DNA from: an uncultured Marinomonas sp.
GTDB taxonomy: Bacteria; Pseudomonadota; Gammaproteobacteria; Pseudomonadales; Marinomonadaceae
Assembly: GCA_963975045.1 (NCBI GenBank)
Contig: CAXBGJ010000001.1
Coordinates: 12,220-76,219, forward strand
Direction: 5' to 3'
DNA length: 64,000 bases
Part shown: positions 6,064 to 59,347 of the stretch, piece after piece
Position numbering within the stretch: the stretch's first letter is position 1
Layout of the letters: the number at the start of each line of letters is the position of its first letter
Made by a program: the position numbers and the translations under genes
Notes under the pieces: generated by a model
The model's input: only the letters and a program-made list of their open reading frames with translations
The model's database searches: none
What the model was told of the DNA's origin: nothing

Positions 6064-6071
6064 AAAAAACC

Positions 6072-6863: not shown

Positions 6864-6887
6864 GATATTAACTTCAGAGGGTTCAAA

Positions 6888-9654: not shown

Positions 9655-9715
9655 ACAACAGATTTATACAGGTTAATTAATAGAAATTCAGCACAACCAA
9701 AAATGACTGGTTATG

Positions 9716-9883: not shown

Positions 9884-10033
9884 AAAAATCTCATTGCTAG
9901 AGTGTCGAAAAGGCATATCAAACAATATCAATTTCTTTAAAATATAGCATGTAACTGCACAATGAAAAATACAAATACATAACCGACTAGGTTGTTATCA
10001 TAACGAACCCACACTACCGGTTTTCATTGAGAT

Positions 10034-10543
10034 TCATGCCTTACTTGGGGCTTCCGTTTTTTTCATTTCGGCACCAAACATTTTTTTCAAATGATCTTTA
10101 TTTAAGTCAAATAAACTGCCGCCTTCGCCAAAATGTTTAGCAAAAATCTTGCCCAATACATAAGTTGAAGTAGAGGCTAACGCAGGTAATGTAAATGCAC
10201 TTGCCAAAGTACCAATTCCTGGAATCGCTTTAATAAGAGAGCCCACAGCTCCGGCTGCAATGGTTTTAGGCATAAGCCCTGCAATCAATGTTGAAATAAT
10301 AACCTTACTTTTATTATCTGTAAGCTCTACTTCATAATGCTTGGCAAGCTGTTGAATCATTCGAACTTGAACCCCAGCAATGGCAGCAAAATCTAAAACT
10401 GGAATCATAACCAAACCACCAGCAGCCGCTAATTTGCTATGAAATTTAACAATATCCATTGCATCGGAACTTTTTTCGCCAGCTCCAATCTCTTCTGAAT
10501 TATTTGCTTCCATTTCAATTTCTTCTGAGTTATTTCCTTTCAT
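10034..10543 (-). CDS. DUF697 / YcjF-like protein
   Basis: AAAGGLVMIPVLDFAAIAGVQVRMIQQLAKHY and KAIPGIGT...ASTSTYVLGKIF pattern typical of DUF697; GAGG SD upstream of the ATG. Confidence 0.72.
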   Translation of the reverse strand: MKGNNSEEIEMEANNSEEIGAGEKSSDAMDIVKFHSKLAAAGGLVMIPVLDFAAIAGVQVRMIQQLAKHYEVELTDNKSKVIISTLIAGLMPKTIAAGAVGSLIKAIPGIGTLASAFTLPALASTSTYVLGKIFAKHFGEGGSLFDLNKDHLKKMFGAEMKKTEAPSKA

Positions 10544-27280: not shown

Positions 27281-27287
27281 TTTGGCC

Positions 27288-48200: not shown

Positions 48201-49736
48201 GGTATTGTACTTAAAAGCCAATATCAAACCTTTCGGACCCGTTACCGCTTCCAGCATTAGATCCAACACCCCTTCCTGTTGAGGCAAGGCTATGGGGGTG
48301 ATAGTTAGGCTTCCAAATGGAATCTCAGTTTTAACCGGCTGATAAATAAAATCGTCTGGCTGATTATAGTCTTTATCAATACGCAACATATGTTCAGCAA
48401 AATCGCTCACTTGGGCAAGACTTTGCAATACAAATGCGACTTGAAATACCGGCGAGTATTGTGGATCACGCTGGCAGTCTAATGCGTCAAATAACTGTGA
48501 AAAAGGCAACTCTTGATAATCGAGCGCTTCAAGAATATTTTGGCTTGTTTGGGCCACTAAATACTGGAACGTCATTGATGCATCAAGTTGTGCAACAATT
48601 GGCATTGGGTTAACAAAAAAACCAACTGAATGCTCGTATTTTTTTGATATTCGGCCCGACAGTGGGGCACCCACAACAAAATCATTCTGGCCACTAACGC
48701 GGAACAATAAGGTCTGATAAGCCGCCATCAATACACTGTACAAGGAAACATTTTGCTGTTTTGCAAACCCCATCAATTGATCACTCAACTGACTCGTAAT
48801 ACAAACCGTGTAGCTATCACCGTTAAACGTTTGTCGTAACGGTCTTTCAGCATCACAAGGTAGTGACAAATAAGGTGGTATATTGGCTAATTTTTCCTTC
48901 CAATAATCTATTTGAGAGCTACATTTTTGCGTTGATAAAAAGTGCTTCTGCTGACTAATATACTCTGAATAAAGGCCTATTTCTGGAGCAATGCTTGCAA
49001 CTTTCCCTGTTGTTTTCTGTTGGTAAATTTGGCGAATTTCATCAATCAGCTGCCATAACGACCACCCATCTACAGCAATATGAGGAGCAACGATAACTAG
49101 ACTGGTTTCATCCGCATTACGGCCAGTCCACAGTACAGCTCGTATAATCGGCCCCGTTGACAAATTAATTGGCATTACATATTCCGCAAGTAACGCCTGC
49201 CGCTGCTGTTGTTCACTCCAACCGACAGCACTGACAACCTTTAACGGATCTTTTATGGCCTCACTCGGTGTTGTAATTTGCACAACATCCGCAGCATGTT
49301 CATTTGTATGATTCTGTTCAGCGACGACGTAATGAGTTCTAAGTATAGGATGAGCATTAATGAGCTGCGTAATCGCTACAGCCATAGCTGGCTCATCAAT
49401 CTTTGCATGAATGGTTGCAGCAAAACCCACATTAAACGCAAAACCCGTTTTATCCAGTCGGCTTAGATACCACATGGACTCTTGACCTAAAGATAACTCA
49501 AACGGCTGATCATCGTTAATAGCAGGAGCAGGAGAAGATGAGGAAGGAAAAAGGAGTAAATAATTAATGAGTTCAGGTTTTCGGCTTCGTAACGCGAGAA
49601 CCAAATCATCATCTAATACACCTTTTGGTGCATCAATTAACAATTTATCGTCCTTAACATTAAGCACAACTTTACGTTCTTTCAGATACGCTAGAAATTC
49701 CGTTATGGTCATTTCAATGGGTGAATTTGAGCTCAT
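27288..49736 (-). CDS. NRPS, modules 1-6: betaHD-C-A(Ser)-T-C-A*(vestigial)-T-C-A(Ser)-T-C-A(aromatic?)-T-E-C-A(Ser)-T-C-A(?)-T-E
   Basis: 7482 aa uninterrupted. Five A domains have YTSGSTG; codes are DVWHLSLVDK, DVWHISLIDK, DAAAVVAVCK, DVWHISLVDK and DVYYLGGVCK. There are six T domains (4 GGHS, plus 2 GGDS before E domains). E motifs are HHLVIDAVSW and HHLIVDALSW. Confidence 0.95.
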   Translation of the reverse strand: MSSNSPIEMTITEFLAYLKERKVVLNVKDDKLLIDAPKGVLDDDLVLALRSRKPELINYLLLFPSSSSPAPAINDDQPFELSLGQESMWYLSRLDKTGFAFNVGFAATIHAKIDEPAMAVAITQLINAHPILRTHYVVAEQNHTNEHAADVVQITTPSEAIKDPLKVVSAVGWSEQQQRQALLAEYVMPINLSTGPIIRAVLWTGRNADETSLVIVAPHIAVDGWSLWQLIDEIRQIYQQKTTGKVASIAPEIGLYSEYISQQKHFLSTQKCSSQIDYWKEKLANIPPYLSLPCDAERPLRQTFNGDSYTVCITSQLSDQLMGFAKQQNVSLYSVLMAAYQTLLFRVSGQNDFVVGAPLSGRISKKYEHSVGFFVNPMPIVAQLDASMTFQYLVAQTSQNILEALDYQELPFSQLFDALDCQRDPQYSPVFQVAFVLQSLAQVSDFAEHMLRIDKDYNQPDDFIYQPVKTEIPFGSLTITPIALPQQEGVLDLMLEAVTGPKGLILAFKYNTDLFDVTTIQSWSEQLVLLLEQSVLFPNTKLIDFNFLNSMAYQAEMESSSGAVESISSTDLLDGFVRHAKTFPDDIALIYGDDQLSYGQFECRSRHLAAYLHTNGVGHGDVVGVFAERSFEMMLGIYASLMAGAVYLPLDPDLPDQRIDGLIDDGGVTCILAQAKHVTRLSPAKTSVVLEPWAQDRGSKNTEGSNGIELRPNSTAYILYTSGSTGKPKGVMISHLAISNRLQWMQSCYQLKRHERVLHKTPISFDVSIWELFWPLREGATLVLAEPGGHKDGVYLEHLLRKKAITTVHFVPAMLRSFLETAEIQEGAYSLTRILCSGESLERQLAVRANTLLNAPVHNLYGPTEAAVDVTWHELDITDQADSNILTVPIGTPIDNTQTFVLNEALQFVPRGVEGELYLGGFNLAHGYLGQARLTATSFIPNPFSKQMGERLYRTGDRVRRLASGALEYLGRNDGQVKIRGQRIELGEIEAILAEHPSLEAAAARVWPAESGARLAVYYQHKQYSECLIDAQALHAWLAERVSSAMLPSSWNRLDKLPLNSSGKLDRKSLREPEFWSVSDTAKTKVKPQGITEEMLGDLWCEVLNVKEVFRGDDFFQLGGHSLLAAKLVSRVRRFLFLEISLAQVFDHPVLSDLAVVLQTQVSDPNSIKPSIAISAAQKDVICPLSSSQQRLWVLNKMEPESTAYNMPGAIRLKGELNLEALEHAIKDLMLRQRILLSQVTEVAGSPELRFLSLDELNSELLIERVDCSNVAPSQRYDELQKHLIALSQHLFDLSTAPLFKVRILTFAAKDCALVICLHHLIADGTSIGILFQEWSALYQLAIEDMNTTKEPLDNLKLDYRDFAIWQQQQVSTARNKSELIFWQQQLNGLHDLHLLTERQEPVLPITADYEEYRFDIPANLIGQMQQLAIEQKTTLFTLMLGVYWLLLSRHSQQQNFALAIPTDGRFNADLEPLIGCFVNTVLFSPYSSNKTLNGVTGKDFIADVKHCLLAALEHQNLPFDVLVSNLQATRINGMNPLAQALFTFQETLQAEPLFGVPQADFFNHYASGKTFEISLNIEPKNQSFGWSACFEFQPSKFSHERLITFSKDYLLLLQQLVSSNECAIAQYELTSIVKDYCRPVNRYAQLQLPASSLQPSLQTDVLICADTRLNRTQLEHYVAVLCAELKRQSIGAGDVVGSCVSPLLSTIIMLAVDRCDACWAPLKTIDDHEQISPSLLITSQRFLGDPNLGLADQLLSSKSAVWIFQSEGLDADLHIVHKQDVLHFENDNVSDACFYDFAHQCFYTKCERHLLVKALSGNDFGLSIHSVLPMQNVMDYAIKYRSLTEGSCLVLSDNTNITLDLQRLGATSLCLSASQFANLQLEQPEQLASLINIYVIGDLVNGLQASKVAFNHKLNIHNVVCSPNGGRPLSSRIWRADKSILIDGNDVGQPIFEDTWWLKGECSDLVSIGVEAQLMVEHESSSTHKATGLLVSYWGEGCYQYLGTTDQPNWYDGHYLDLTILQEYLYGQIDVQQVYLPSPSKEALPWTCYVTSRTLVQQDEIKLLGAMQACFTSHMLPNRIAILGNMPVTQDGRIDISRLPIFEQHSPFLTDPDRQKSQAEVALTAIWRTVLQHDSFSIDDNFFSVGGHSLSGAQLVALINRAFGLSMPLQEIFKHPTIATLLTFLDQATLEETNCPHDAKPIVSELNKNVALMPLLAVKRQQQFILSPAQYDIWVQCQKLTTDNASAYHIPALFMVEGELDHIKLHTSVRLLLEKYDILRTAIIDTIDGPVQLIQERVEFDIIVDNGIGWSAEKQKHVIQKAVDQPFNLNSAPLVRVHRYELGSQQNLLLFVFHHLAFDGHSLRYFLDELSAVYHSSSMVPATLQYQDYVYWIDKKMQAPESQLSRDFWHQQLSVIEPLQYASERPRLNDVSNQAEWFSVDFDAALFSSLERMAKEQNVSVFMLYLSALYATFYRLTGQHKIVLGAVVSTRTDPALRDMMGLFLNNIALPVTLDESKSFPQNLQNIASILMGALSHANYPLGRLVSELQPQTPAGHMPFFDVLVDWQDDVLSDSSWSLEGTKVHPHRLLSSQCKYDLTLYFRRIRCSDNQSSIRLDVEYRSQLYDASEISDFCQRYIHLLGDIVQSAVTPLARLAVLSKEEQQRELIVSQGPQKQVTSCWLLDRFIVLAKRYPDRLALVSETDSLSYQQLWQRSQNLASHLQSQGITHGDVVAVFSERSLEMMVGIYAVLQAGATYLPLDPDLPDQRLHDLIIDADVCITLVQRQHAKRMAVENRKVILDDWQAERTPCVIPVFQAIEMLPQSSAYLLYTSGSTGKPKGVLVSHAAIVNRLEWMQTRYQLDCSDRVLHKTPISFDVSIWELFWPLRAGAVLVLAEPGGHRDSVYLERLIREKAITTLHFVPAMLHSFLSTAPLQSSNVYLLKRIICSGENLESSLAKTANDAFNVPVDNLYGPTEAAIDVTWYEFDERNHALSNTRFSVPIGVPIDNTQTYVLNEALELMPQGVVGELYLGGANLAHGYVGQSALTAASFIPSPFNMTQAGSRLYRTGDRVRRLESGALEYVGRMDGQVKIRGQRIELGEIEAVLTEYPAIDSVAAKIWPSDLGSKLAVYYRINQGVDIAVETLERWMSQRVSAAMLPSAWCEMETLPLSDSGKVNRKALIEPAVWNTSQVARSKRTAEGLTEQLLSQIWADVLERNDIYRDDNFFDLGGHSLVAAKMIARVRAQFSVEIALSQVFSTPVLFDFADIIRREKIWSTDLAEDLNFDQSSAPQRATSKLLKRAFLADSAPVFYPLTPTQKRFWTLHNVSTAGNAHHIFGAVRLRGILDEQALLIALQVLTDRHDSLRTRFTEAVGDVVDEPIFAEVIPSYQAELDIVSLDNASAPFVDAWLKLQINDEFDLVLAPPVRFKLAKLSTDESILLVCLHHILADGWSASILMQEWAHLYAQISRHDNAEANNVLPLDPTTVFSKSPHAYADFADWYQGNLNVFIEQQLPFWQERLTAVDALQLPVLSPDNVNTGQQSSNVHEAIQHRFHIDKSLFAKIQTQASQCQATPQMVMLSALFILLYKQSSSTEKNLSAAKKMVIGSVVAGRDKLEFEDTVGAFVNTLAMVANVHHKMDFREVIQQVKAFCLLAYQHQDIAFESILDHFPSVRDGRHPIFQVMMVWQSMPAVDWRFAGLQSEEIDLSATQTAFDQTWLFTPTMNGLDGILTVRTDMVGINYIEALSAQLVQMLGNLLEAPKACIANVSLLSYAEYQKILSFNASLVSLNPITPLESEHVSVIDTVCAMALETPNEWAIVSDELCLTYAELLHKVDLFSEGLITLAQGSHSSENELVIGVYCDKSIDGVAIILAILASGFVFLPLDPAYPATRLEYILKDAQPSIIIADDALLDSIPTDDIPCIALSRLRQPSGSAGLISKQSGGGSSRIIDLEQLAYIIYTSGSTGRPKGTLLTHRGLNNLVKSQREPFGLTPNKRLLQFASWNFDAAIAEIFACLANGSTLVLPNKEARLPGDELVAQLNTHQVTTIALPPTVLNTLNPIDLPWLKIVVSVGEACSKATVQRWLSQNRQFVNAYGPTECTVCSTIHTVDTRADLEPITPIGRSIAQVQVYVLDANKQVLPVGMVGELYIGGIGLARGYLGHVRLTAERFVPDHLSSQAGARLYRTGDLARYLLNGELEFIGRDDEQVKIRGFRVELNEIASVLQQHPSLRDATVELREENNIKQLVGYVVAEQNETKIDSQVLIEWLIKWLPDYMVPHRYITLEAMPLTPNGKVDSQRLPTLVSASLVTDKTEIRVASTANERLLTEIWGRFFSLNSVDIDQNFFALGGDSIVAIQVIASLKQQGFVLNSQQIFNYPTIAELAPLIKHLNNQTFAPLIDQHSLPLSPMQRWYLDSLQGSSALDESINAPSPYFTQSVLLKTPVNASSAQILTALRTVIEGSAQFGLRFKQTMSDGGQNHWQQSLVEQRSLYWLEVADMQTSVADIADVLRARIDIKKGPLFAAAWINGSQGASRLLLVAHHLVIDAVSWRLFIQRLSNNMIMSNTATEDDLFIRWLSDLTGRAAAISENEARYWADIESTFSQGFIMVDPFASNTVLDERCETVYVCEDVTQAILSSANVSYNTRPEELLLASWWLTCQRYVDNANLCLKIEIEKHGRSNDVGDALGWFTSLYPLLLSVSESPFIDPVAHAIYVSKEASRAVPKQGMGYGLLKYMRPDALSIEQKTLQEHQDSRALSMVFNYLGQAGEATDSDHDFAFLDEYLGKERDLNAERFSDLELTSVVHRGRLRLSLTFSAAQIQPSIIATLLSEWQKALTDVVNHTGQTVYTPTPSDFEHVDLSTKRLADILTRYSNVQTIYPVNSLQEGMLVAIQRDNTNRQSFEQISCEFVGDFDARVFGRALTALFESQPILRSSFDCHGVSAMQVVHKNVEVDVTQMDWRNKKGDSQHALNAFVVQQRAIGFSLEQELLHRFFLIRLDDQRTYFLWCQDHRQLDGWSLPILLKQLFVFYNQANTGKPIQQLNSKKAEQSYSGYLTWLNQRDLASTDAFWRDQLTALDLDTSLPLIGNKSVDALWDQRSFDSNKVTLQLGGEESHLIRTFCRQRGITIATLVQGAWALLLDRFGDTTNTRGEKLFGVTLSGRDNGVDNIDSVVGMLINTLPLRVATHTQHTISEWLGDIQSRVNAIQSYSYSNLADIQSIYQSLNNQTSNRNSGLLKSAVVVENYPVDSSLNRSLTGFSIEKVNAYEETHFPLTLLVHPSEQLALQLMFDGHIYSKKQAQTLLEGYKHILLSLSRESNASIPLQSLVSCLSEEQQSIELRLSSGSETVVESLSLLDRFVAHTQRYPNHVALIQGQQQLSYAQLDDRSKKLAAHLQIKGVLAGDVVAVCAARSLDMMLAIYAVLQAGAVYLPLDVDLPDKRLNELVIDSHAVMILAQAPQVSRLISGVECVLIEAWQTSNRSQPTAPLQPVALMDQSVAYILYTSGSTGKPKGVMVSHGAIVNRLEWMQSYYGLTHGERVLHKTPISFDVSIWELFWPLREGATLVLADPGSHKDGVYLERLIREMAITTVHFVPAMLRGFLEYVPLQDRQYVLSRIICSGESLERSLAEHASRALGAPVYNLYGPTEAAVDVTWHKHISPIQALDDEDDTGLSVPIGVPISNTQIYVLNASLELVPSGAIGELYIGGMNLAQGYLGQSALTATSFIPSPFSTTSGARMYRTGDRVRRLPCGALEYLGRNDSQVKIRGQRIELGEVEGVASRYPGLEAVAAKVWSVGADTYLSLYFQSKQGVSININEAKRWMRERVSDALVPSVWQALDALPLSTSGKVDYKALIEPDLHHQVSQDREKTPASGEVEKALAGIWLSVLNCKEVYREDNFFELGGHSLSAAKLVAKIRDHFNVEIPLAHIFDSNSLAQLATQLEGVTARAVAVKSPQANDNTTLIPLPLSTAQTRLWIMQKIQPLSSALNVVAAFEINDAVDVERLQAAVRALLKQHRVLSSHIVSNELDQTAMQQLLPIPVRPIEIVDLSHSDSNAVDALQAKIVDQPFSLSAEPLYRFCLVTIDETSWRFIIVVHHILADGWSVDLLFQNLMENYQSNLDFEQVVENKPDYLTLIQQNQFSENEVEQGAARTYWCEKLDGYQPLMLSQAPQSANISDEVEQLKFDIPVHLVEKMSLLCKDNQASLFMGLTASLNVLLARLSRQDDLVIGFPVAGRTHTAMHQVVGCFVNSLVMRTQIAPQASFMHVLQQVRTNTLEALEHQALPFEQLVELLNVPRNQNRHPIFQLMVDLQTVDDSTIDNASLSVKPVELLRENSVYDVSFAMRVHNLEDKQTVAGTLSYRTDLFSAAQVTVWIDLWFTMLEQMCEQPNQCLSAPQWLPSDQYSLIQQLAYGDKTQPHTGTLHGGFVEQALKYPDSIAVHHLGEQISYEQLNHWSDQIAYRILADLPDSSEVVIGICAHAGIDMIAAMLGIMKAGGAYLPLDPAFPSSRIESLLKDAGVDLVLTDAAQGEKSFGADVTVQSIAVLRKLSMNRVVLPVVQAANLAYVLYTSGSTGKPKGVACQHSSVINLLADIDQRTALAVGERASMWTAFTFDVSVYEIFRPLLSGATLYPVPENIRVDTDSLLDWYLDNGIHSGYLPGFILSELAQYSEGSVEPMTLTSLLVGVEPIDQQVLSQLQCHIKGLNIINGYGPTESTVCASLHQFDSMLSGQGITPIGKPVNNVSIWLVDNNFQLVPYGSIGEVVIGGKGLARGYFGQPAMTAEQFVPLPWSNDLGAVGYRSGDLARWNAQGQLEFIGRGDFQIKLRGLRIEPNEIVQALNQHAGIENSLVMAQTDSEQYTQLVAYFTQKQGAHSAELERESLQAFLATRLPSYYIPNAFVELSEFPLTRSGKIDRNALPIAAVAQEKATTWVEASNPTEGLLMQIWQALLDVESLSTHDNFFQLGGDSILVFRLVAALRKEGVICQASQIFQHQTIASLAFHIDQQNFNGEASQEEAPEPQIAPVSPIQKWFFEQHFSEPGQWNQGLVLRLTQALPSQTIHSALLCLQRQYAALRTYFVEQEDGWQQCVHGLDEPTKAIHLAHFNFAFSSTSSEGKAAMLRVCEQLNTPFQLSQGPLFRVALVEWHDVESNSDIEPHKQLIFIAHHLIVDALSWLVIGDQLESLCAAKHTELPSRPSRMANNLDWAERLQKHALLLSHKNSSEAKNLPSELPLDYDVDNIDQENLVGSEVVLHTILALELDVTNEYAILVAALGQVISSWSEQLDTVICVESHGRSSMFPEVDLSTSIGWFTTLNSVTVNSELLALEQIQDVDQQLVTLLDSGVINSVRNAYHAQEPIKNALVSLNYFGSVDAQTNKEASTRLFQAEAITPSHLQHEKNHRPFLLELSIARKSKNLEITWVYSRNMHHESTIKALSDDYISNIKRLSESVLSNVTDQSSTLGLSIDQFDDLLDELSLFDE
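43190..44800 (-). other. Degenerate adenylation domain followed by an intact T domain (module 2), inside the large NRPS
   Basis: About 455 aa occupy the A position but lack the YTSGSTG P-loop, FD, YGPTE and TGD-R motifs. Only traces remain (IGAGDVVG; MPVTQDGRIDISRLP for LPLTxNGKIDRxxLP, with Lys replaced by Arg). The following T is FFSVGGHSL. Confidence 0.88.
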
Positions 49737-52700
49737 ATTTCAATCACTTCTCGACTATCATCCATAACATCTGGTTCAAATTGTTGCTGAATGTCATATA
49801 CGAGACTCTCCACACTGGCACCTTGAATAATATCAACGGTGCGGATCACAACGCGGAAATCAGCCTCTATACGACTTTTCAATGTCACGGCCATTAACGA
49901 ATCAAAACCTTGCTCAATAAGAGGTTTTCTTAATTTCAGTGACTCAACACTGGTCGCCATTAAATTGGCCACCTCTAGTGTTAACCAATCAAAAACAGAG
50001 CGATTAGCCCCATTAAACATGTCAATTTCTTCGTGATTATAATTTACCGCTAACACCTCTGAGCCCACCTCTTCATGACGAGAAAATAAGTTTTGTATTA
50101 GTCCATCTCGCTCAAGCTCAGGTACGATTTTCAGCAAATCATCCAGAGGTCCAGGAATAACAAAAATATCAGCAGGAAAAAGACTTCTATCAGCAGGGTG
50201 ATTTTTTAACATCGATATGCTCCATTCCAGCATATCCATACCGGCCTGTAATTCGATTGTTTGCACCCCATGACGATTGACTAAATCCACTACCTTTTGT
50301 GCGGCTACACCCGCTTTTTCCCAAACCCCCCAAGATAACGTTAAAGCATTCAAACCACCCATTCGAGCTTGATGACTTAAACCTGACTGAAAACCATTCG
50401 CCGCAGCATAGATAGCTTGACCTTGAGGAGCTAATACACTGGCGGCAGAACCAAACATAATAAAAAAATCTAAGGGCCGGCTGTAACGCTCAAAGTACTC
50501 AAGCAAACATTGGCTTCCCTTCGCCTTCGCAGACATAACATCATCAATATGATCCATATCGACGCGCTCAATTAGTGAGCCCTGTAGATCGCCAGCCAGT
50601 TGAATAACCCCTTTTATTGGATGGGTTAATTCTGCCTCGATTTTTCTCAAAGTACCGAATATCTTGTCTATGTTGCCGTCACCAACGTCTAAGTCAACAA
50701 CGTCAATTTGCACTCCGGAGCGTTTCCAGTGTTCAAATAAATCACTATTTTCCAGTGCTTTTTGTATGGCTGTACGACTTGTTAACACAAGAGATCGAGC
50801 ACCCATTGCTATTAAGCGTCCAACCGTTTCAATCCCCAACACACCAAAGCCACCAACGACCAAATAGCTCCCATCACCCTCAAGCACCTGTTGCACAGGA
50901 TTATAATCACCCATCAGAGAAGCTTGTAGTGGCACTAGCACTGGTTCGAAAGTAATGTTATTCCGATAAACACGGTGTTTCATCGGCGCCTTACTGGATG
51001 TGTTTTTTTGCAGCAACACAGCGAGATTATTGACCCCATTCGAGCGTTCATCGAAATCCACTAAGCGCAATGGAATCCTTGTAAACTCACGATTCACCAC
51101 ACGTCCAAATGCCCAAAGTGCAGCACCTTCAGGGTGGATTATATTGTTATCTTGATCGCTGATTTTTTGACTAGAATGGGTCGCTAAAATAAAGCTGTCT
51201 AATAAGATGTGCTTTTGGTTGATGACAGAAAACATCACAGATAACACCAGCAAAGTATCAGTAACGGAATACGTTACAGTGTCATCAGCCCAAAACACAC
51301 AATGGCTTATTTCTTCATGAAGCACTAAATCGAAGATACTAGACCAAGCTAGAGGATCATCTAAAGACAAAGAAATGGATTGCTGAGTTTGGTTAAAGCC
51401 ACGGTAATCAGACGAAAGATCAACAAGCCAAACCCTATGGCCTAAGGCTTCTAAAGCCTGAACTTGAGCATCACATGCTGGTGAAGAACGTCGTAATAAT
51501 AGTATTTTTTGCGTGGAGACAACCTGAGGTGCGGATTCCTCGTTGCATTCCTGCCAATCAATGAAGTACGCACAAGCATTGGCTAAGCGTGCTTTACTCA
51601 TGCTTTGATCAGCATCATGACACTTTTGTGCAACTATAATATGCTGCCCAAGCACGCTTGCTGCGCTGTGTTTTTCAGGGAAAGAATGGCCTAATTCAAA
51701 ACCACAACCCTCAAGCAAATCTATCCAGATTTTCGACGACAACAAAGGTGTATTAGTGCGGATACCATCATCAAATACCCCCCACCCCTCGATGAGTCCA
51801 ATTGACATATCCACCCAAGGTTGCGCATTTGTCAGTTCGTATAAAAGAATCATCGCACCGGAACGCATCACACTATTGAGCTGTGCAAGAGTTTGCTTTA
51901 GGTCACTAACCGCATGCAGCACATTCGCGCCCAGCACAATATCAAACAATGCCTCGTCAAGGTCTTCTAACTGAGGAGCTAGTGGTGTTTCTAAGTTTAT
52001 CGTCTTAAAGGTAACAAAATCATATTCTGCAAACAGCGCTTTAGCACGTTCAAAAAACATCGGCGTAACATCACTAAAATAATACTCTATGGGAGCATCA
52101 CTAACATTAGAGAAATTTTCTGCCAGGGATGGAATGAGAGATCGAGTTAACCCTCCGGTGCCCGCTCCAACCTCCAAGATACGCAGTGGTTTTTTGCTCT
52201 TTTTTTGATTCGCCAAGACACTCAGGTACCGTAAACAACTACGCACAGCTATGCTGTTAAAGTACTGCACCAACGGCCAGTCATGATATAGCTTTTCAAC
52301 CAACTCAAGTGAACCTTGCGGAAACAAAAGTTCGAGCGGGTTAAATTCACCGATTAAAGTCTGTGTTAGCTGCCGATCACAATGCTCTAAATAGTTGAAT
52401 AAAAACTCACCGTCATCACCGTCAAAATACTCAGCGCACTTGATTTGAGCCTTAAATCTGTTTTCATCAAGGGATGATGCGCCCTCATTGAGAAAATATT
52501 GCTTATCAAAACTATCTTCATCAACATGGGTCGAGGTATGAAGAATGCCCACATTACTCAGGTGATCTAACCAGCGCTCAACCAATGGCAAATAATCATT
52601 TTTAATATCTGTTTTATCAATAAAGCGTCTAACCGTAACACCCTGCTTTAATAAACCTTTCCCATCAATTTTGACCAACGCTACAGCCATTGAATAAACG

Positions 52701-55700
52701 GCATAGTCGTTTAAGTTGTCCCAAGATTGCTCGCATTTATCCAAGGATAAATCCATCGGTAAGTACGTGCTTTGTCGTTGAATCTCTTTGACGATTAAAG
52801 GCCATTGCTGAAATATTATAGGCCGATAAACGGCTTCATTGTCTATTTCAGGCAATGTAGGGAGCTCAACCGGCATAACTTGTTGTAGATGTGGATACCA
52901 AAAAGTTTGTTGTTGCCAAGGGTAGGTTGGTAGTTGATAAGTGGGGGCTGCCGCGATATTTATATCCGCAATCGCGTCTTCGTTAATTAACGTCCAATCT
53001 AATACGCCATCATGTTCATAAGACCTAGCCAACACCTTATGCAGCTGGCTTAATGCGGGTACTTTCAGACCTTCCCTTGAGTTAGACTTAATCAAAGTGG
53101 CCATGGTAAAACCAGACTGAGATAGACCCCGTAAGTTCGCTTGAATGACTGGCGACAGTATGGCGCCTGGACCAATTTCAATAAAATTTCGATAGCCTTC
53201 AGAAACCGCCCGCTCAATAGCCTGCTTAAAGTGCACCGTATTGCGAATATTATTCGCCCAATACCGAGCATCATAATACGTCGAGGTTACCCCATCCCCA
53301 GCACTTGTGGAGAACATGTCTACTGAACTGCTCAGTCCATCAACTTTTGCCAATTTTCCAATAAGTACAGATTCTAATGGCGCCATGTTTGCACTGTGAA
53401 ATGCGTATGGCATAGCCATTCGGTGAAACTCAATATTATTTTGCATAAGATAATGTGAAAAGTTTTCAATAGCCCCATTATCCCCACTAACCACGCAAGC
53501 AAGTGCGCTGTTGTCGGCGGCAACTTCTACCGAAAAACCGGATATTACAATGAGTTCTTCAACCGCCTGAGCAGACATCCTCAGTGCTAACATGCCGCCT
53601 TTTCCGTGTGCATCATGCATAACTTCACCACGACCAAGGATAACTCGCACTGCGGTATCGAGGGATATTTTTCCGGCCACGTAAGCCGCAGCCACCTCCC
53701 CCATACTGTGACCGACAACTGCTGAAGGTAATACGCCACACTGGCGCAGATAATCTGCTGTTGCCACTTGTAGCGCAAAAATCATTGGCTGAATAAAGCG
53801 AGTTTGATCTGTTAAAGATTCCTTTTCCAGTTGCTCAACAACCGACCAACCAGCGTGCTTTTGAACCAACTGATCGATGGAGTTTAATGCGCGATTAAAC
53901 ACGCTAGAACTTGCTCTAAGCTCCTGCCCCATACCCAACCACTGATTGCCCTGCCCACTAAACACAAAAACATGTCCCGCAGTAACATCAATATCTCGTG
54001 TTTTAGATGACCACGCCAATTCTTGTCTTAACGCTTCTGCGGCAAGAGTCAGTTTTTCGACAAACTCATCAACATGGCAACATGAAAGTGTAATACGGTG
54101 GGAGATATGATCTCTATTATGTATAAGCTGTGACGCTAACAACGCTAATTGCACATCATTCTCACCCACAAAGGCGAGTAATTGCTCAACACGCATCAAT
54201 AACGCTTTGGGCGTATTAGCAGAAACAGGAATCAGCAGCGGTCGATTTTCTTGAACAACGTACGATGACTGGCGACTTGGCAATGTATCATCAGCACGCC
54301 CCAAAATAACATGAGCATTTGCGCCACCAAAACTAAACGCGCTTACCCCAGCAAAAAGTGGCTCGCTGAACTCGGTATTTGACGTTTTAGAAGATCCGGA
54401 TTGAGTGCTTAAACAGGTATTCTTTTGAGCGATGGCTAAGTTGTCTCCAAGCTCAATCATTGGGTTTAATTGTTGGCAATTAATCGTGCTAGGCAACATT
54501 TTATAGTGCAATGACAGCACACTTTTAATTAGACCGGCCAAGCCTGCCGCCGCCTCCAAATGACCAATATTACTCTTTGCCGAGCCGACTAAACATTTGC
54601 GTTTTCGCGCCCCTGAACCTTGGCTCATCAAACGTTTTAAAGCCCCCACTTCAATTGGATCGCCAAGGGGCGTTCCCGTACCATGAGCTTCAAAAAAACT
54701 AATATCATCAATGGTTTTATGAGCCGCCTTTAACGCTTGAGTAATAACCTCTTCTTGAGCCAAGCCATTCGGCGCCGTAAGTCCGTTACTTCGACCATCT
54801 TGGTTTAAAGCAGAACCTTCGATAACCGCTAACACTCTATTGCCTTGCGCTTGTGCAACATCCAACGGCTGCAACATCAATACCGCTCCGCCTTCTGCAC
54901 GAACATAGCCGTCCGCCTCAGCTGAAAAAGTTCGGCAAGCACCTGTTGGCGATAACATATTAGCTTGCGACAAACCCACTGCGACATCAGGCGATAATAT
55001 TAGATTTACACCACCTACTAAAGCCTGATCGCAATCACCAGCCTGAAGGCTGCGACAAGCTTGGTGAATCGCCACCAAGGATGATGAGCAGGCCGTGTCT
55101 ATGGCCATACTCGGCCCTTTGAAATCAAAAAAGTAAGATAGACGATTCGCCGCAATACTGTGCGCATTACCTGACGCTTGATAAGCACTAATATTTTCCA
55201 GCGCAGAACCTGCCAGCGCATCATAATCGTGTGTACTTATACCAACAAAAACCCCTGTATTACTCCCAGATAGAGCCTCACGAGTAAATCCAGCAGATTC
55301 GATTGCTTCCCAGGAAAGTGCCATCAATAACCGTTGCTGAGGGTCCATTGAATTTGCTTCACGCGCTGAAATACCAAAAAAATCGGCATCAAAACCAGTC
55401 ACATTGTCGAGAAAACCCGCAGTGTTAAGCTTATTCTTTTCAACCGAACCGTAGTCTTTTAATAATGCGTCCGACCAACGCTCATCTAACCTTTTAGAAA
55501 CGCTATGTTGATTGTTGAGCAACAATTGCCAATATTCATCTATATTGCTGGCTCCAGGGAAACGACAAGACATAGCAACAATAGCGATACGAGAGGAATG
55601 TTTATTCACCTCACCCACAGGTAAAGGCTCATTATGCTTTGCAGGAGAAATAAGATGATCACATAAGGCATTAATCGTTGAGTATTGATACAGCACCGTT

Positions 55701-57676
55701 GGGTCCAACGGCTGATTTAACCGCTCCGACAGACGCCCCGTCAGACCGACCGATTGACGCGAGTTCAATCCATATTCTTTTAACGGTCGATCAAATTTTA
55801 TGGAAGAGACCTCTGCAGAAGGTATTTCCAGTAATTCAGCAATCTGCGATCTTAACCAAGACTTTAACTCAAAAGCGCCTGCATCGGCTTCAGCCCTCTC
55901 TTTAGACTCACCCCCATAAAGAATATGGGGATCTAAATCGGCAAACACTTTCAACTCCTGATTCAATAATTTTTGTTTGCTTAACGAACGCTGAATTTTG
56001 CCACTTGATGTTTTATCAATTGAGCCTGGTCGAACCAATACTAAGCGGCTTAACGACAAACCCAGCTCTTCTGAAATAGTGGAGGCGACTGCAGCAAAAA
56101 CCTCTTCAAGGTCTAAGTTATTACGCTCTGTTCGCTTTACCTCCTGTATCAATACTAAACGCTCTAATCCATCATCATATAAACCGAAAGCTGCCCCTCC
56201 ATCCGCCTCTAAAGCGGAGTGACTTTGAGCCGCCATTAATTCAATATCTTGGGGATAATAGTTATTGCCATCGACAATAATGACATCCTTTAGACGGCCA
56301 TTAACAAATAACTCTCCATCACAATCTAAAAAGCCTACGTCACCAGTGCGTAAATACTCACCGCGCCCAGCAAAACCTAAAGCGATACCGTAAGTACTTT
56401 TAGTTTTTGCGTCATCAGCCCAATAACCAGAAGTAATAGTTTTCCCTGCCAACCATATTTCTCCAATATGCCAAGCCTCTAAACGCTCTCCTGTTACGGG
56501 ATTAACAATCGCAATATCAACACCACTGGCCGCTCTACCTGAGCTAACTAACCTCTGACCTGCATTACCATCTAGTGACTCTACCGCGCATCCTTGTCGC
56601 AACGAGACAGGATCAAAGGACTTAATGACCAACATTTTTTTAATCCCACTGTCTGTGACCATTAATGTTGATTCTGCCATGCCATAGCCAGGCATTTGCG
56701 CTTCAGGTCTGTATCCAAAGGGTTTAAAAGCGTCAGCAAAAGCCTCTACACTACTGACACGGATTGGCTCTGCTCCATTTAATAAAGACCGCCAATTTGA
56801 AAGATCGAGTTCAAGCAGCCCCGCAGGATTATTTCGCTTGAATCGCTCTAGTGTTGATACCGCTAAATCAAGAGCGAAATTAGGAGCGAAACTATGGGTA
56901 ATACGGTATTTAGAAAGCGCAGTCAGCCAAAGCATAGGAGTTTGAATAAATGTTGCCGGGGCCATCAAATAACCTTTGACCCCTATATACAGCGGCATAA
57001 TGTAACCACATATCAATCCCATATCATGATAGTGAGGCATCCAACTAAGCTGACGACTTTCTTCATTAAAATCTAAGGCAGAGCATAATATATCAAGGTT
57101 GCACAATAAATTTTCACCACTAACGATGACACCTTTAGGGTCTGAAGTAGAGCCCGATGTGTACTGTAACAATGCGATTTCATCATATCTTGAGGTGATA
57201 GAGATTATTTTTGCATCCGGCTCTTTATAACTCAAATCCGTTGCCATAACTCTGCAAGCATCGAGCTCTTTTAAATCTTCCAACTGGAGCCAATCATTTA
57301 ATTTTACTAAGGAGGTTTCAGTTGTAAGAAGGCACGAACTGTCGGCATCGTTTAGAACTTTTCGAATACGTCCCCAGTGTCTTACATTACGAGGAGGGTA
57401 AACCGGTATGGCGACAACACCCGAGTACAGACACGCTAAAAAGGCGATGAGGAAATCCAATCCTGATGGATAAAGTAACACCACTCTCTCGCCTGATTGA
57501 GAGTGCAACATAATCTCTTTTGCTACTTTTCGAACTCGATCAAGCAATGTTGCATAATTTAACTCTAATGCTTCACTTCCGTTTTGTAGATATACATAAG
57601 CCGTTTTATTCGGGGTTTTCTGAGCTCTATCAACTAAAATTGCAATTATTTCATGGCAAACATCTTCGTTAATCAT
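49733..57676 (-). CDS. Loading and PKS protein: FAAL-ACP-KS-AT-cMT-KR-ACP
   Basis: FAAL: LQYTSGSTSDPKGV, WMPHYHDMGLI. ACP: GLNS. KS: DTACSSS, HGTGT, NIGHLEAAAG. AT: GHSMG, YAFH. C-MT: LEVGAGTGG, ANVLHA. KR: GGFGVLG, YAAAN. ACP: GFDS. Confidence 0.95.
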   Translation of the reverse strand: MINEDVCHEIIAILVDRAQKTPNKTAYVYLQNGSEALELNYATLLDRVRKVAKEIMLHSQSGERVVLLYPSGLDFLIAFLACLYSGVVAIPVYPPRNVRHWGRIRKVLNDADSSCLLTTETSLVKLNDWLQLEDLKELDACRVMATDLSYKEPDAKIISITSRYDEIALLQYTSGSTSDPKGVIVSGENLLCNLDILCSALDFNEESRQLSWMPHYHDMGLICGYIMPLYIGVKGYLMAPATFIQTPMLWLTALSKYRITHSFAPNFALDLAVSTLERFKRNNPAGLLELDLSNWRSLLNGAEPIRVSSVEAFADAFKPFGYRPEAQMPGYGMAESTLMVTDSGIKKMLVIKSFDPVSLRQGCAVESLDGNAGQRLVSSGRAASGVDIAIVNPVTGERLEAWHIGEIWLAGKTITSGYWADDAKTKSTYGIALGFAGRGEYLRTGDVGFLDCDGELFVNGRLKDVIIVDGNNYYPQDIELMAAQSHSALEADGGAAFGLYDDGLERLVLIQEVKRTERNNLDLEEVFAAVASTISEELGLSLSRLVLVRPGSIDKTSSGKIQRSLSKQKLLNQELKVFADLDPHILYGGESKERAEADAGAFELKSWLRSQIAELLEIPSAEVSSIKFDRPLKEYGLNSRQSVGLTGRLSERLNQPLDPTVLYQYSTINALCDHLISPAKHNEPLPVGEVNKHSSRIAIVAMSCRFPGASNIDEYWQLLLNNQHSVSKRLDERWSDALLKDYGSVEKNKLNTAGFLDNVTGFDADFFGISAREANSMDPQQRLLMALSWEAIESAGFTREALSGSNTGVFVGISTHDYDALAGSALENISAYQASGNAHSIAANRLSYFFDFKGPSMAIDTACSSSLVAIHQACRSLQAGDCDQALVGGVNLILSPDVAVGLSQANMLSPTGACRTFSAEADGYVRAEGGAVLMLQPLDVAQAQGNRVLAVIEGSALNQDGRSNGLTAPNGLAQEEVITQALKAAHKTIDDISFFEAHGTGTPLGDPIEVGALKRLMSQGSGARKRKCLVGSAKSNIGHLEAAAGLAGLIKSVLSLHYKMLPSTINCQQLNPMIELGDNLAIAQKNTCLSTQSGSSKTSNTEFSEPLFAGVSAFSFGGANAHVILGRADDTLPSRQSSYVVQENRPLLIPVSANTPKALLMRVEQLLAFVGENDVQLALLASQLIHNRDHISHRITLSCCHVDEFVEKLTLAAEALRQELAWSSKTRDIDVTAGHVFVFSGQGNQWLGMGQELRASSSVFNRALNSIDQLVQKHAGWSVVEQLEKESLTDQTRFIQPMIFALQVATADYLRQCGVLPSAVVGHSMGEVAAAYVAGKISLDTAVRVILGRGEVMHDAHGKGGMLALRMSAQAVEELIVISGFSVEVAADNSALACVVSGDNGAIENFSHYLMQNNIEFHRMAMPYAFHSANMAPLESVLIGKLAKVDGLSSSVDMFSTSAGDGVTSTYYDARYWANNIRNTVHFKQAIERAVSEGYRNFIEIGPGAILSPVIQANLRGLSQSGFTMATLIKSNSREGLKVPALSQLHKVLARSYEHDGVLDWTLINEDAIADINIAAAPTYQLPTYPWQQQTFWYPHLQQVMPVELPTLPEIDNEAVYRPIIFQQWPLIVKEIQRQSTYLPMDLSLDKCEQSWDNLNDYAVYSMAVALVKIDGKGLLKQGVTVRRFIDKTDIKNDYLPLVERWLDHLSNVGILHTSTHVDEDSFDKQYFLNEGASSLDENRFKAQIKCAEYFDGDDGEFLFNYLEHCDRQLTQTLIGEFNPLELLFPQGSLELVEKLYHDWPLVQYFNSIAVRSCLRYLSVLANQKKSKKPLRILEVGAGTGGLTRSLIPSLAENFSNVSDAPIEYYFSDVTPMFFERAKALFAEYDFVTFKTINLETPLAPQLEDLDEALFDIVLGANVLHAVSDLKQTLAQLNSVMRSGAMILLYELTNAQPWVDMSIGLIEGWGVFDDGIRTNTPLLSSKIWIDLLEGCGFELGHSFPEKHSAASVLGQHIIVAQKCHDADQSMSKARLANACAYFIDWQECNEESAPQVVSTQKILLLRRSSPACDAQVQALEALGHRVWLVDLSSDYRGFNQTQQSISLSLDDPLAWSSIFDLVLHEEISHCVFWADDTVTYSVTDTLLVLSVMFSVINQKHILLDSFILATHSSQKISDQDNNIIHPEGAALWAFGRVVNREFTRIPLRLVDFDERSNGVNNLAVLLQKNTSSKAPMKHRVYRNNITFEPVLVPLQASLMGDYNPVQQVLEGDGSYLVVGGFGVLGIETVGRLIAMGARSLVLTSRTAIQKALENSDLFEHWKRSGVQIDVVDLDVGDGNIDKIFGTLRKIEAELTHPIKGVIQLAGDLQGSLIERVDMDHIDDVMSAKAKGSQCLLEYFERYSRPLDFFIMFGSAASVLAPQGQAIYAAANGFQSGLSHQARMGGLNALTLSWGVWEKAGVAAQKVVDLVNRHGVQTIELQAGMDMLEWSISMLKNHPADRSLFPADIFVIPGPLDDLLKIVPELERDGLIQNLFSRHEEVGSEVLAVNYNHEEIDMFNGANRSVFDWLTLEVANLMATSVESLKLRKPLIEQGFDSLMAVTLKSRIEADFRVVIRTVDIIQGASVESLVYDIQQQFEPDVMDDSREVIEI

Positions 57677-57790: not shown

Positions 57791-57991
57791 TTATTTCTCT
57801 AGAGCCTTACGTAAACTAAGGGGACGCATATCAGTCCAAACCTCTTCAATATAATCTAAACATTCCTGTCGATTTTTTTTATGTCCAACGGCTTCCCAAC
57901 CATTAGGCATTTCTTTTTCTGATGGCCAGATAGAATATTGCTCTTCATGATTGACAACCACATAGTACTCCAAAGTATCTTCGTAATTCAT
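57791..57991 (-). CDS. mbtH: MbtH-like protein
   Basis: [12 protein letters not shown]...PNGW...[17 protein letters not shown] with three conserved Trp; GAGG SD. Confidence 0.97.
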
Positions 57992-58367: not shown

Positions 58368-58480
58368 TGACCTAAAATGTATGAAAAAAATATACCTTTA
58401 ATAAAAAACGTTTGCAACTTTCTTGAGAGCTTCTTATATCAACCCATAGGCAGCGACCCCAAGGGATATCTGATCAAGTC

Positions 58481-59311: not shown

Positions 59312-59347
59312 TCTTGAGGCTCGATTTAGAAAAATCAGATTGCTGAA

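What the first reader, a model, noticed from the sequence alone, without database searches (positions are those of the whole stretch)
49733..57676. Single-protein FAAL-ACP-KS-AT-cMT-KR-ACP starter resembling cyanobacterial depsipeptide lipid-unit logic
Seen: fatty acyl-AMP ligase loading fused to one extension module with a C-methyltransferase and KR but no DH or ER. Established: this domain set gives a 2-methyl- or 2,2-dimethyl-3-hydroxy acyl unit, the type known from marine cyanobacterial depsipeptides (Hmoya/Dhoya-type units). Inference: its beta-hydroxyl is a candidate nucleophile for TE macrolactonisation. Finding this in a probable gammaproteobacterium together with N-MT modules hints at cross-phylum origin or convergence.
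Basis: partly seen in the sequence, partly recalled or inferred. Interest (0 to 1): 0.62.

Follow-up and report, generated by a model that had tools for sequence, protein, structure and literature searches.

The report
Fatty-acid-primed polyketide starter of lipopeptide cluster
This gene really does encode one large enzyme that should load a fatty acid, lengthen it by two carbons, add one or two methyl groups and leave a hydroxyl before passing it to a ten-module peptide synthetase; the enzyme type is familiar, but this marine-bacterial version belongs to a rare, unstudied group with no sign of a cyanobacterial origin.

Summary
ORF 49733-57676 (-) is an intact 2647-aa FAAL-ACP-KS-AT-cMT-KR-ACP protein. 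All catalytic motifs are present and there is no DH or ER. Its AT is malonyl-type, so C-methyls must come from the cMT, whose His1921/Glu1947 dyad aligns with CurJ. The predicted product is a 2-methyl- or 2,2-dimethyl-3-hydroxyacyl thioester.

A conserved C-terminal tail and a TubC-type docking domain pass this unit to a 10-module NRPS. The predicted peptide is Ser-X-Ser-D-X-Ser-D-X-Val/Ile-NMeThr-Ile-NMeThr-TE.

The host is a Marinomonas MAG (RpoB 95-97% identical). None of 24 other genomes of the genus carries an orthologue. GC and GC3 are native-like.

FAAL, KS and cMT trees all place the protein in a nine-member clade of identical architecture. The named members are Arenicella (Gamma) and Rubricella (Alpha). 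Each gene is preceded by mbtH and followed by a docking-domain NRPS. Cyanobacterial and yersiniabactin HMWP1 domains fall elsewhere, and the deeper sister group is unresolved.

So the chemical logic is supported, and macrolactonisation on the beta-hydroxyl is plausible but untested, since at least five Ser/Thr hydroxyls compete. The hint of cross-phylum origin is not supported.

Verdict: an orphan gene cluster, a new member of a known kind, of moderate genome-mining interest.

The parts
57791..57991 (-). MbtH-like protein gene (66 aa) directly upstream of the PKS
   Evidence: ORF. PF03621 MbtH was called on the identical metagenome contigs. An mbtH gene precedes the PKS in every family member examined.
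55907..57676 (-). FAAL loading domain (residues 1-590)
   Evidence: Pfam AMP-binding plus DIP2-like C subdomain. The best PDB matches are all FAALs: 7R7G 1e-113, 3KXW 6e-94, FadD23/32/28 and EcFAAL 3PBK. Acyl-CoA ligases reach only about 1e-21. The top adenylate-family NCBIfam hits are fatty-acid--AMP ligase models.
55652..55858 (-). ACP1 (residues 607-675), carrier for the FAAL-loaded acyl group
   Evidence: PP-binding hit. The Ser in EYGLNSRQ is conserved in the family as EYGL[NTS]S.
54476..55594 (-). KS (residues 695-1067), an elongating ketosynthase
   Evidence: Pfam E 1e-86 and 6e-40. The Cys (DTACSSS), His (EAHGTGT) and His (NIGHLE) motifs are all present and conserved.
53090..53971 (-). 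AT (residues 1236-1529), malonyl-type
   Evidence: Pfam E 9e-63. It has GHSMG (not GHSQG), YAFHS with Phe at the HAFH/YASH discriminating position, and QTRFIQP. Motif meaning is taken from PMC7327777.
51662..52879 (-). C-methyltransferase (residues 1600-2005, lid plus core)
   Evidence: PDB matches: CurJ cMT 5THY 4.5e-42, DisA 6CCA 3e-37, AprA MT2. SAM motif ILEVGAGTGG is present, and His1921 and Glu1947 align with the CurJ catalytic dyad.
50237..51589 (-). KR (residues 2030-2480, structural plus catalytic subdomains)
   Evidence: Pfam KR E 3e-44. It aligns to PKS KR structures 4IMP, 3SLK and 2Z5L. GGFGVLG, Lys, Ser, Tyr and Asn are present. The LDD position reads LQG and the A-type Trp position is Leu.
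49772..49999 (-). ACP2 (residues 2560-2635), carrier of the finished starter unit
   Evidence: PP-binding/ACP_SdgA_C hit. The GFDSL Ser is conserved.
49736..49771 (-). C-terminal docking tail ending ...SREVIEI
   Evidence: The tail motif R-[ED]-[VTI]-[IVLM]-x-[ILF] is conserved at the extreme C-terminus of all eight proteobacterial family members and is absent from the cyanobacterial protein of like architecture.
49557..49706 (-). TubC_N-type beta-hairpin docking domain at the N-terminus of NRPS1 (residues 11-60)
   Evidence: PF18563 at E 1.7e-13. The same domain heads the downstream NRPS in the Arenicella, Logan, ENA and Rubricella loci.
27288..49736 (-). NRPS1 (7482 aa), modules 1-6: C-A(Ser)-T, C-A*(dead)-T, C-A(Ser)-T, C-A(DAAAVVAVCK)-T-E, C-A(Ser)-T, C-A(DVYYLGGVCK)-T-E
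   Evidence: Pfam counts, motif positions and specificity codes. Its start overlaps the PKS stop by 4 bp.
19409..27313 (-). NRPS2 (2634 aa), modules 7-8: C-A(DAFVLGMTYK)-T, C-A(Thr)[N-MT]-T
10833..19382 (-). NRPS3 (2849 aa), modules 9-10 and release: C-A(DAFFLGITFK)-T, C-A(Thr)[N-MT]-T-TE
   Evidence: The TE has GWSLG and a downstream His.
5299..10543 (-). Accessory genes: DUF697, ABC exporter, SPFH protein, type II thioesterase, Sfp-type PPTase
   Evidence: Pfam. The PPTase and TEII are the expected helpers for an ACP/T-rich assembly line.

Best explanation
The ORF is the priming subunit of an orphan hybrid PKS-NRPS lipopeptide pathway of about 54 kb in a marine Marinomonas. Inferred sequence of events: the FAAL adenylates a free fatty acid (chain length unknown) and loads it on ACP1 without a CoA intermediate. 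The KS condenses it with malonyl-ACP2, which is supplied by the malonyl-type AT. The cMT methylates C-2 of the beta-ketoacyl-ACP once or twice with SAM. The KR then reduces the 3-keto group. With no DH or ER, the result is a 2-methyl- or 2,2-dimethyl-3-hydroxyacyl-S-ACP2. The PKS tail (...SREVIEI) docks on the beta-hairpin docking domain of NRPS1, and C1 (PHIAVDG) transfers the acyl group to Ser1. Ten modules build acyl-Ser-X-Ser-D-X-Ser-D-X-(Val/Ile)-NMeThr-Ile-NMeThr, and a C-terminal TE releases it. I rate ring closure on the acyl 3-hydroxyl at about 0.5. Shown here: the domain order, the intact motifs, the docking pair and the module count. Inferred: the substrates, the number of methyls, the stereochemistry and the release mode. 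In evolutionary terms the protein belongs to a small, rare clade of identically built proteins in marine Proteobacteria. It is accessory in Marinomonas, and it was inherited as a whole unit (mbtH-PKS-NRPS) rather than assembled from cyanobacterial parts.
For: The domain map and the absence of DH and ER come. FAAL identity rests on structural homologues and NCBIfam. KS, AT, cMT, KR and ACP catalytic motifs are intact and conserved across nine homologues. The docking tail and the TubC_N domain are conserved in all family loci. The PKS stop and NRPS1 start overlap, and PPTase, TEII, MbtH and an exporter lie in the same operon-like block. The host is Marinomonas. No orthologue occurs in 24 genomes of the genus. 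The Arenicella locus is collinear through PKS and 2800 aa of NRPS at 46-49% identity. FAAL, KS, cMT and FAAL-ACP-KS trees are congruent, with support 100*, 100*, 100* and 100/99*. An exhaustive search of 1.84 billion representatives finds only one other 50% cluster close across cMT-KR, at 47% identity; the rest are at 40% or less.
Against: FAAL chain-length preference cannot be read from sequence. The best structural cMT matches are a monomethylating cMT (CurJ) and a gem-dimethylating cMT (DisA) at similar scores, so the methyl count is open. The KR lacks both the LDD Asp and the A-type Trp, so 3-OH configuration is unassignable. The AT motif is YAFH, not the textbook HAFH. Module 2 has a dead A domain, so residue 2 is uncertain. 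The genome is a MAG of 388 contigs, so mis-binning is possible in principle, although GC matches and the contig carries 98 kb.
Confidence: 0.78

Rival explanations
1. The starter protein, or its FAAL, KS and cMT parts, was acquired from cyanobacteria. It would then be a transplanted kulolide- or hapalosin-type lipid-unit module.
For: After the family itself, the highest-scoring FAAL and KS sequences in the sampled set are cyanobacterial (Nostoc, Scytonema, Anabaena). A Scytonema protein shares the same domain order. The cMT's best solved structure is cyanobacterial CurJ. An AU test does not reject family plus cyanobacterial FAAL clade as one group (p 0.66).
Against: In all four trees the cyanobacterial sequences form their own supported clades, outside the nine-member family. 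The backbone is a polytomy, so no sister group is supported. Named family members are Gamma- and Alphaproteobacteria. GC (0.433 against 0.432) and GC3 are native. The docking tail is absent from the cyanobacterial homologue. No JamB-type desaturase, halogenase or hydroxy-acid module accompanies the gene.
Confidence: 0.1
2. The 3-hydroxyl of the acyl unit stays free. The TE closes the ring on a Ser or Thr side chain, as in Pseudomonas viscosin- or syringomycin-type lipopeptides, or it simply hydrolyses to a linear lipopeptide.
For: The predicted peptide has Ser at positions 1, 3 and 5 (perhaps also 2) and N-Me-Thr at 8 and 10, so there are many alternative nucleophiles. From my own knowledge, many gammaproteobacterial 3-hydroxyacyl lipopeptides lactonise on Thr or Ser.
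Against: Also from my own knowledge: in characterised pathways where a PKS module deliberately makes an alpha-methylated 3-hydroxyacyl starter (hapalosin, globomycin, kulolide-type and emericellamide-type compounds), that hydroxyl is the ester oxygen. Several gammaproteobacterial lipodepsipeptides (WAP-8294A, serrawettin, plusbacin) also close on the acyl 3-OH. None of this was tested here.
Confidence: 0.45
3. The cMT or the KR is a non-functional relic. The unit delivered would then be an unbranched 3-hydroxyacyl or a 3-ketoacyl chain.
For: The KR lacks both canonical stereochemistry fingerprints. The Pfam MT hit is modest (E 1e-13).
Against: The SAM motif, the His/Glu dyad, the NADPH motif and the Lys/Ser/Tyr/Asn residues are all intact. 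They are conserved across homologues only 37-49% identical, which indicates purifying selection.
Confidence: 0.07

Closest known systems
Uncharacterised orthologues in Arenicella sp. MAGs (JBOEHE010000064.1; GCA_041156805.1) and the sister clade that includes Rubricella aquisinus WP_184009092.1
   Same: They share the FAAL-ACP-KS-AT-cMT-KR-ACP order, an mbtH gene upstream, the C-terminal R-E/D-x-x-x-[ILF] tail, and a downstream NRPS headed by a TubC_N docking domain. The Arenicella locus is collinear through the first 2800 aa of NRPS1, including the module with only one A3 motif per two modules.
   Different: Identity is only 46-49% (Arenicella) and 37-39% (sister clade). None of these has a known product. 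Rubricella carries a halogenase-like gene and an extra methyltransferase gene upstream.
Yersiniabactin synthetase HMWP1 PKS module (KS-AT-cMT-KR-ACP) of Enterobacteriaceae and Pseudomonas
   Same: It has the same reductive loop in gammaproteobacteria (Pfam domain lists). From my own knowledge, it bis-methylates a malonyl-derived unit and reduces the ketone to give a gem-dimethyl carbinol.
   Different: It has no FAAL loading domain and sits in the middle of an NRPS line. Its cMT forms a separate, distant clade (100*) at 30-35% identity.
Cyanobacterial FAAL-primed cMT-KR starter modules (hapalosin HapA/HapB type; Hmoya/Dhoya units of kulolide-type depsipeptides) and CurJ cMT (PDB 5THY)
   Same: The chemical logic is the same: a fatty acid is loaded through acyl-AMP, extended by one malonyl unit, C-methylated with SAM and ketoreduced with no dehydration. 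The FAAL-ACP didomain feeding a type I PKS in hapalosin is described in PMC11837247. The CurJ cMT dyad aligns.
   Different: This protein is not in the cyanobacterial clades. The cluster has no alkyne-forming desaturase and no alpha-hydroxy-acid modules. The docking system differs, and the peptide is Ser-rich and unlike any kulolide.
FAAL domains fused to PKS modules in Pseudomonadota and cyanobacteria (micacocidin, desmamides, olefin synthase)
   Same: An N-terminal FAAL is fused in cis to a type I PKS module. This arrangement is listed as known in PMC11837247. The best PDB match, 7R7G, is a PKS-embedded FAAL.
   Different: Those modules lack the cMT-KR combination or are iterative, and their products are not decapeptide lipopeptides.

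Membership tests
Fatty acyl-AMP ligase (FAAL) loading domains | ANL-superfamily adenylation fold whose closest relatives are verified FAALs rather than acyl-CoA ligases | tested here: met
   PDB matches are 7R7G 1e-113, 3KXW 6e-94, FadD23/32/28 and EcFAAL at 1e-63 or better, against CoA ligases at about 1e-21. NCBIfam fatty-acid--AMP ligase models score best among the adenylate families.
Fatty acyl-AMP ligase (FAAL) loading domains | FAAL-specific insertion in the N-terminal subdomain | tested here: inconclusive
   The segment around residues 338-385 aligns to the FAAL of 7R7G with only two short gaps. I did not align a CoA ligase to show the insertion explicitly.
Fatty acyl-AMP ligase (FAAL) loading domains | Cognate ACP immediately downstream | tested here: met
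   PP-binding at 607-675 with a conserved Ser.
Fatty acyl-AMP ligase (FAAL) loading domains | Forms acyl-AMP and transfers to holo-ACP but not to CoA | not testable with these tools
   This needs an enzyme assay.
cis-AT type I PKS module with a KS-AT-cMT-KR-ACP loop | KS Cys-His-His triad | tested here: met
   DTACSSS, EAHGTGT and NIGHLE are present.
cis-AT type I PKS module with a KS-AT-cMT-KR-ACP loop | Malonyl-specific AT, so that branching comes from SAM | tested here: met
   GHSMG, Phe in YAFHS and QTRFIQP are present, with motif meaning from PMC7327777. The first motif residue, Tyr, is atypical.
cis-AT type I PKS module with a KS-AT-cMT-KR-ACP loop | cMT with SAM motif I and the catalytic His/Glu dyad | tested here: met
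   ILEVGAGTGG is present, and H1921 and E1947 align to the CurJ dyad.
cis-AT type I PKS module with a KS-AT-cMT-KR-ACP loop | Active KR (NADPH motif, Lys-Ser-Tyr-Asn) | tested here: met
   The stereochemistry fingerprints are absent, so the A or B type is unassigned.
cis-AT type I PKS module with a KS-AT-cMT-KR-ACP loop | No DH and no ER | tested here: met
   No Pfam hit, even at E<=10, on either linker. The linkers are too short.
Cyanobacterial Hmoya/Dhoya (kulolide-type) depsipeptide pathways | PKS domains that group phylogenetically with cyanobacterial homologues | tested here: not met
   The protein falls in a separate supported clade in the FAAL, KS, cMT and FAAL-ACP-KS trees. A deeper sister relation is not rejected.
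Cyanobacterial Hmoya/Dhoya (kulolide-type) depsipeptide pathways | JamB-type desaturase making the terminal alkyne, and alpha-hydroxy-acid (A-KR-T) modules | tested here: not met
   There is no desaturase and no KR-containing NRPS module among the proteins scanned in the window.
Cyanobacterial Hmoya/Dhoya (kulolide-type) depsipeptide pathways | Macrolactone closed on the acyl 3-hydroxyl | not testable with these tools
   This needs the product structure or a TE assay.

The most novel reading that the evidence does not exclude
The nine-member mbtH-[FAAL-ACP-KS-AT-cMT-KR-ACP]-NRPS family encodes an undescribed class of marine proteobacterial cyclic lipodepsipeptides. In this reading a gem-dimethyl- or methyl-3-hydroxyacyl unit is the ring-closing element. 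The class would be a heterotrophic-bacterial counterpart of the cyanobacterial kulolide and hapalosin chemistry that arose independently, with its own dedicated PKS-to-NRPS docking pair and a KR of a non-canonical stereochemical type.
Probability: 0.3. Interest if true: 0.5.

Novelty: new member of a known kind. Interest (0 to 1): 0.3.

Why it matters
Marinomonas is not known as a lipopeptide producer. This cluster is complete in about 54 kb, with its own PPTase, TEII, MbtH and exporter. It recurs at 99.7-99.8% DNA identity in three ocean-metagenome assemblies, so it is a clean target for synthesis or capture and heterologous expression. The conserved docking tail and beta-hairpin pair, and a compact single-protein route to alpha-methylated 3-hydroxyacyl starters, could be useful parts for engineering lipopeptides. 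The work does not open a new biological question. The enzymology is textbook, and the suggested cyanobacterial link is not supported.

Tried and rejected
- **16S rRNA:** none is present in the MAG, so I used RpoB instead. An exact look-up of RpoB found nothing.
- **Insertion site by synteny:** the flanking GS-like and SDR genes are themselves absent from most Marinomonas genomes, so no empty site could be shown.
- **Terminal repeats at the apparent island ends (about 5284 and 59457):** none of 10 nt or more was found.
- **Names for the unnamed family members:** only Rubricella aquisinus was recovered. P0003, P0012-14 and P0319 remain without taxonomy.
- **AU test of a family-plus-cyanobacteria FAAL clade:** not rejected (p 0.66). 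The constrained tree was even slightly better than the quick free tree. A careful FAAL-ACP-KS tree then left the backbone unresolved, so I make no claim about the deep origin.
- **Mono- versus di-methylation:** the cMT clade is separate from both HMWP1 and the CurJ-like groups, and the CurJ and DisA scores are similar. No call is possible.
- **Literature:** searches for a described Marinomonas or Arenicella product, or for this exact architecture, found none.
- **Hidden DH or ER:** rejected.
- **Siderophore reading of the Ser-rich peptide:** considered and dropped, because no hydroxylase or hydroxamate- or catechol-forming genes are present.

Full report
**The observation**

The window holds one uninterrupted ORF at 49733..57676 on the minus strand, exactly as reported (2647 aa). 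Pfam places the domains in this order:
- AMP-binding domain 16-419, with a DIP2-like C-terminal subdomain 464-577
- carrier domain 607-675
- KS 695-1067
- KS-AT linker 1098-1212
- AT 1236-1529
- methyltransferase 1818-1995
- KR 2269-2453
- second carrier domain 2560-2635

No dehydratase or enoylreductase family is hit on the whole protein. None is hit when the two linker stretches (AT-to-cMT and cMT-to-KR) are scanned alone at E<=10. Those stretches instead align to the N-terminal lid of the CurJ C-methyltransferase and to the structural subdomain of PKS ketoreductases. The described architecture, FAAL-ACP-KS-AT-cMT-KR-ACP without DH or ER, is therefore real.

**State of each domain**

*FAAL.* The loading domain is a FAAL rather than an acyl-CoA ligase or an amino-acid A domain.
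- Its best solved relatives are all FAALs: a PKS-embedded FAAL 7R7G at 1e-113, Legionella 3KXW at 6e-94, mycobacterial FadD23/32/28 and E. coli 3PBK. CoA ligases reach only about 1e-21.
- Among the adenylate-family NCBIfam models, the fatty-acid--AMP ligase models score best.

*KS.* It has the Cys-His-His triad, so it is an elongating KS.

*AT.* It carries GHSMG, a Phe at the discriminating position of the HAFH/YASH motif (here YAFH) and QTRFIQP. By the published fingerprints (PMC7327777) this is malonyl-type. Any C-2 branch must therefore come from SAM.

*cMT.* It matches the CurJ cMT (5THY, 4.5e-42), DisA (6CCA) and AprA MT2. It keeps SAM motif I, and His1921 and Glu1947 align with the CurJ catalytic dyad.

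*KR.* It keeps the NADPH motif and Lys, Ser, Tyr and Asn. It has neither the Asp of the B-type LDD motif (LQG here) nor the A-type Trp (Leu here), so the carbinol configuration cannot be assigned.

All of these residues are conserved in homologues only 37-49% identical, which argues against a decayed domain.

**The rest of the pathway**

The PKS stop codon overlaps the start of a 7482-aa NRPS. That NRPS begins with a TubC_N-type beta-hairpin docking domain (PF18563, 1.7e-13).

The PKS ends in ...SREVIEI. The same R-[ED]-x-x-x-[ILF] tail closes all eight proteobacterial homologues, and each of their downstream NRPSs starts with the same docking domain. This looks like a dedicated PKS-to-NRPS docking pair.

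Motif scans and specificity codes give ten modules:

| Module | Reading |
|---|---|
| 1 | Ser (DVWHLSLVDK) |
| 3 | Ser |
| 4 | DAAAVVAVCK, followed by E |
| 5 | Ser |
| 6 | DVYYLGGVCK, followed by E |
| 7 | DAFVLGMTYK |
| 8 | Thr, with inserted N-MT |
| 9 | DAFFLGITFK |
| 10 | Thr, with inserted N-MT, then TE (GWSLG) |

MbtH, DUF697, an ABC exporter, an SPFH protein, a type II thioesterase and an Sfp-type PPTase complete the block.

**Mechanism**

The steps below are inferred from domain order and established PKS/NRPS logic.
1. The FAAL loads a fatty acid on ACP1.
2. The KS extends it with malonate.
3. The cMT methylates C-2 of the 3-ketoacyl-ACP once or twice.
4. The KR reduces C-3.
5. The 2-methyl- or 2,2-dimethyl-3-hydroxyacyl-ACP2 is docked to NRPS1, and C1 (PHIAVDG) acylates Ser1.

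The number of methyls is open. A monomethylating cMT (CurJ) and a gem-dimethylating cMT (DisA) are matched about equally well, and the family's cMT forms its own clade.

The release mode is also open. The 3-hydroxyl is a reasonable nucleophile. From my own knowledge, alpha-methylated 3-hydroxyacyl starters in characterised lipodepsipeptides are usually the ester oxygen. However, the peptide also offers at least three Ser and two Thr hydroxyls. I put ring closure on the acyl 3-OH at about 0.5.

**Host and distribution**

- The genome is a 3.79-Mb MAG of 388 contigs and 43.2% GC, without a 16S gene.
- None of 24 other genomes of the genus has an orthologue. Their best hits are FabF-level matches or unrelated PKS KS domains at 30-36% identity.
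- The flanking genes are themselves rare in the genus.
- The identical protein occurs on three ocean-metagenome contigs, one from Tara, that are 99.7-99.8% identical in DNA.
- Cluster GC (0.433) and GC3 (0.37-0.39) match the genome (0.432) and rpoB, so there is no compositional sign of recent foreign origin.

**Phylogeny**

Across 5.8 billion clustered proteins, the only close full-length relatives are two Arenicella MAG proteins (48%) and one protein from an unnamed sequencing run (46%). Everything else is at 38% or less. An exhaustive HMMER pass over 1.84 billion representatives found only one other 50% cluster close across the cMT-KR didomain.

Trees of the FAAL, KS and cMT core, and a careful tree of the contiguous FAAL-ACP-KS region, agree.
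- The window protein sits with these three relatives at 100* support in the three single-domain trees. In the FAAL-ACP-KS tree it pairs with the unnamed-run protein at 100/100*; the Arenicella protein was left out there because its gene call is truncated at the N-terminus.
- This group is sister to a five-member clade (support 100*, 82 and 98* in the single-domain trees), and the sampled family as a whole has 100/99* in the FAAL-ACP-KS tree. That clade includes Rubricella aquisinus, an alphaproteobacterium.
- All nine proteins have the same domain order, and an mbtH gene lies upstream of each one examined.
- The Arenicella NRPS is collinear with NRPS1 for 2800 aa at 46% identity.
- Cyanobacterial FAAL, KS and cMT domains, yersiniabactin HMWP1 cMTs and the PKS of another Marinomonas all lie in other clades.

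The backbone is a polytomy. An AU test does not reject joining the family to the cyanobacterial FAAL clade (p 0.66). The deep origin is therefore unresolved. What can be said is that the protein evolved as a unit within a small, so far proteobacterial, family. There is no positive evidence for a cyanobacterial donor.

**Comparison with known systems**

The chemistry is that of known modules.
- FAALs fused to or feeding type I PKS modules are catalogued for cyanobacteria and Pseudomonadota (PMC11837247).
- The KS-AT-cMT-KR-ACP loop is present in gammaproteobacterial HMWP1 (domain lists).
- The cyanobacterial hapalosin- and kulolide-type starter logic is the same in outline.

Membership in the cyanobacterial group fails on phylogeny and on accessory features: there is no alkyne desaturase and no hydroxy-acid module. 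I found no described product for Marinomonas, Arenicella or this architecture.

**Verdict**

The biosynthetic inference is supported, the lactonisation idea is plausible but untested, and the cross-phylum hint is not supported. This is a new member of a known kind: an orphan, apparently complete, portable lipopeptide cluster of moderate genome-mining interest. Its modest curiosities are the conserved docking pair, a KR without canonical fingerprints, and metagenome contigs that seem to break at the cluster's ends.

Noticed in passing
window 59457 and about 5284: Three independent metagenome contigs, 99.7-99.8% identical to the window, all stop exactly at 59457. The Tara contig is 54,174 nt long, which, if collinear, ends at about 5284, just past the PPTase gene. 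That contig would then equal the gene cluster and nothing else, which suggests population-level breakpoints of a flexible island. No terminal repeats of 10 nt or more were found, and the junction is single-copy in the MAG. The left end was not verified.
   Followed up: partly
window 49736-49771, 49557-49706; L001, L032, L033, L034, L037: All eight proteobacterial homologues end in R-[ED]-[VTI]-[IVLM]-x-[ILF]. Every downstream NRPS begins with a TubC_N-type docking domain. This is a conserved docking pair specific to the family, and it is absent from the cyanobacterial protein of the same architecture.
   Followed up: partly
window 50237-51589: The KRs of the whole family lack both the B-type LDD Asp and the A-type Trp while keeping all catalytic residues. 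They form a fingerprint-less KR group of unknown stereochemistry.
   Followed up: partly
window 57992-59647: A 1.65-kb stretch at 34.7% GC, with no ORF over 64 codons, lies between mbtH and the neighbouring aromatic-catabolism operon. The 64-codon ORF at 59348-59542 spans the contig breakpoint.
   Followed up: no
window 27288-49736 (modules 1, 3, 5): Three A domains carry near-identical Ser codes (DVWH[LI]SL[VI]DK) and share long identical stretches (PISFDVSIWELFWPLR...). This suggests module duplication within NRPS1, in addition to the duplicated bimodules 7-8 and 9-10 noted earlier.
   Followed up: no
L037 8254-9462 (Rubricella aquisinus): The sister-clade cluster in a cultured alphaproteobacterium has a flavin-dependent halogenase-like gene and a stand-alone methyltransferase gene just upstream of mbtH-PKS. 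This hints at a halogenated relative of the product.
   Followed up: no
JGI contig of P0014 (no DNA held): A DUF697 gene and an IS240-type transposase lie just upstream of mbtH-PKS. This echoes the DUF697 gene in the window's accessory cassette.
   Followed up: no
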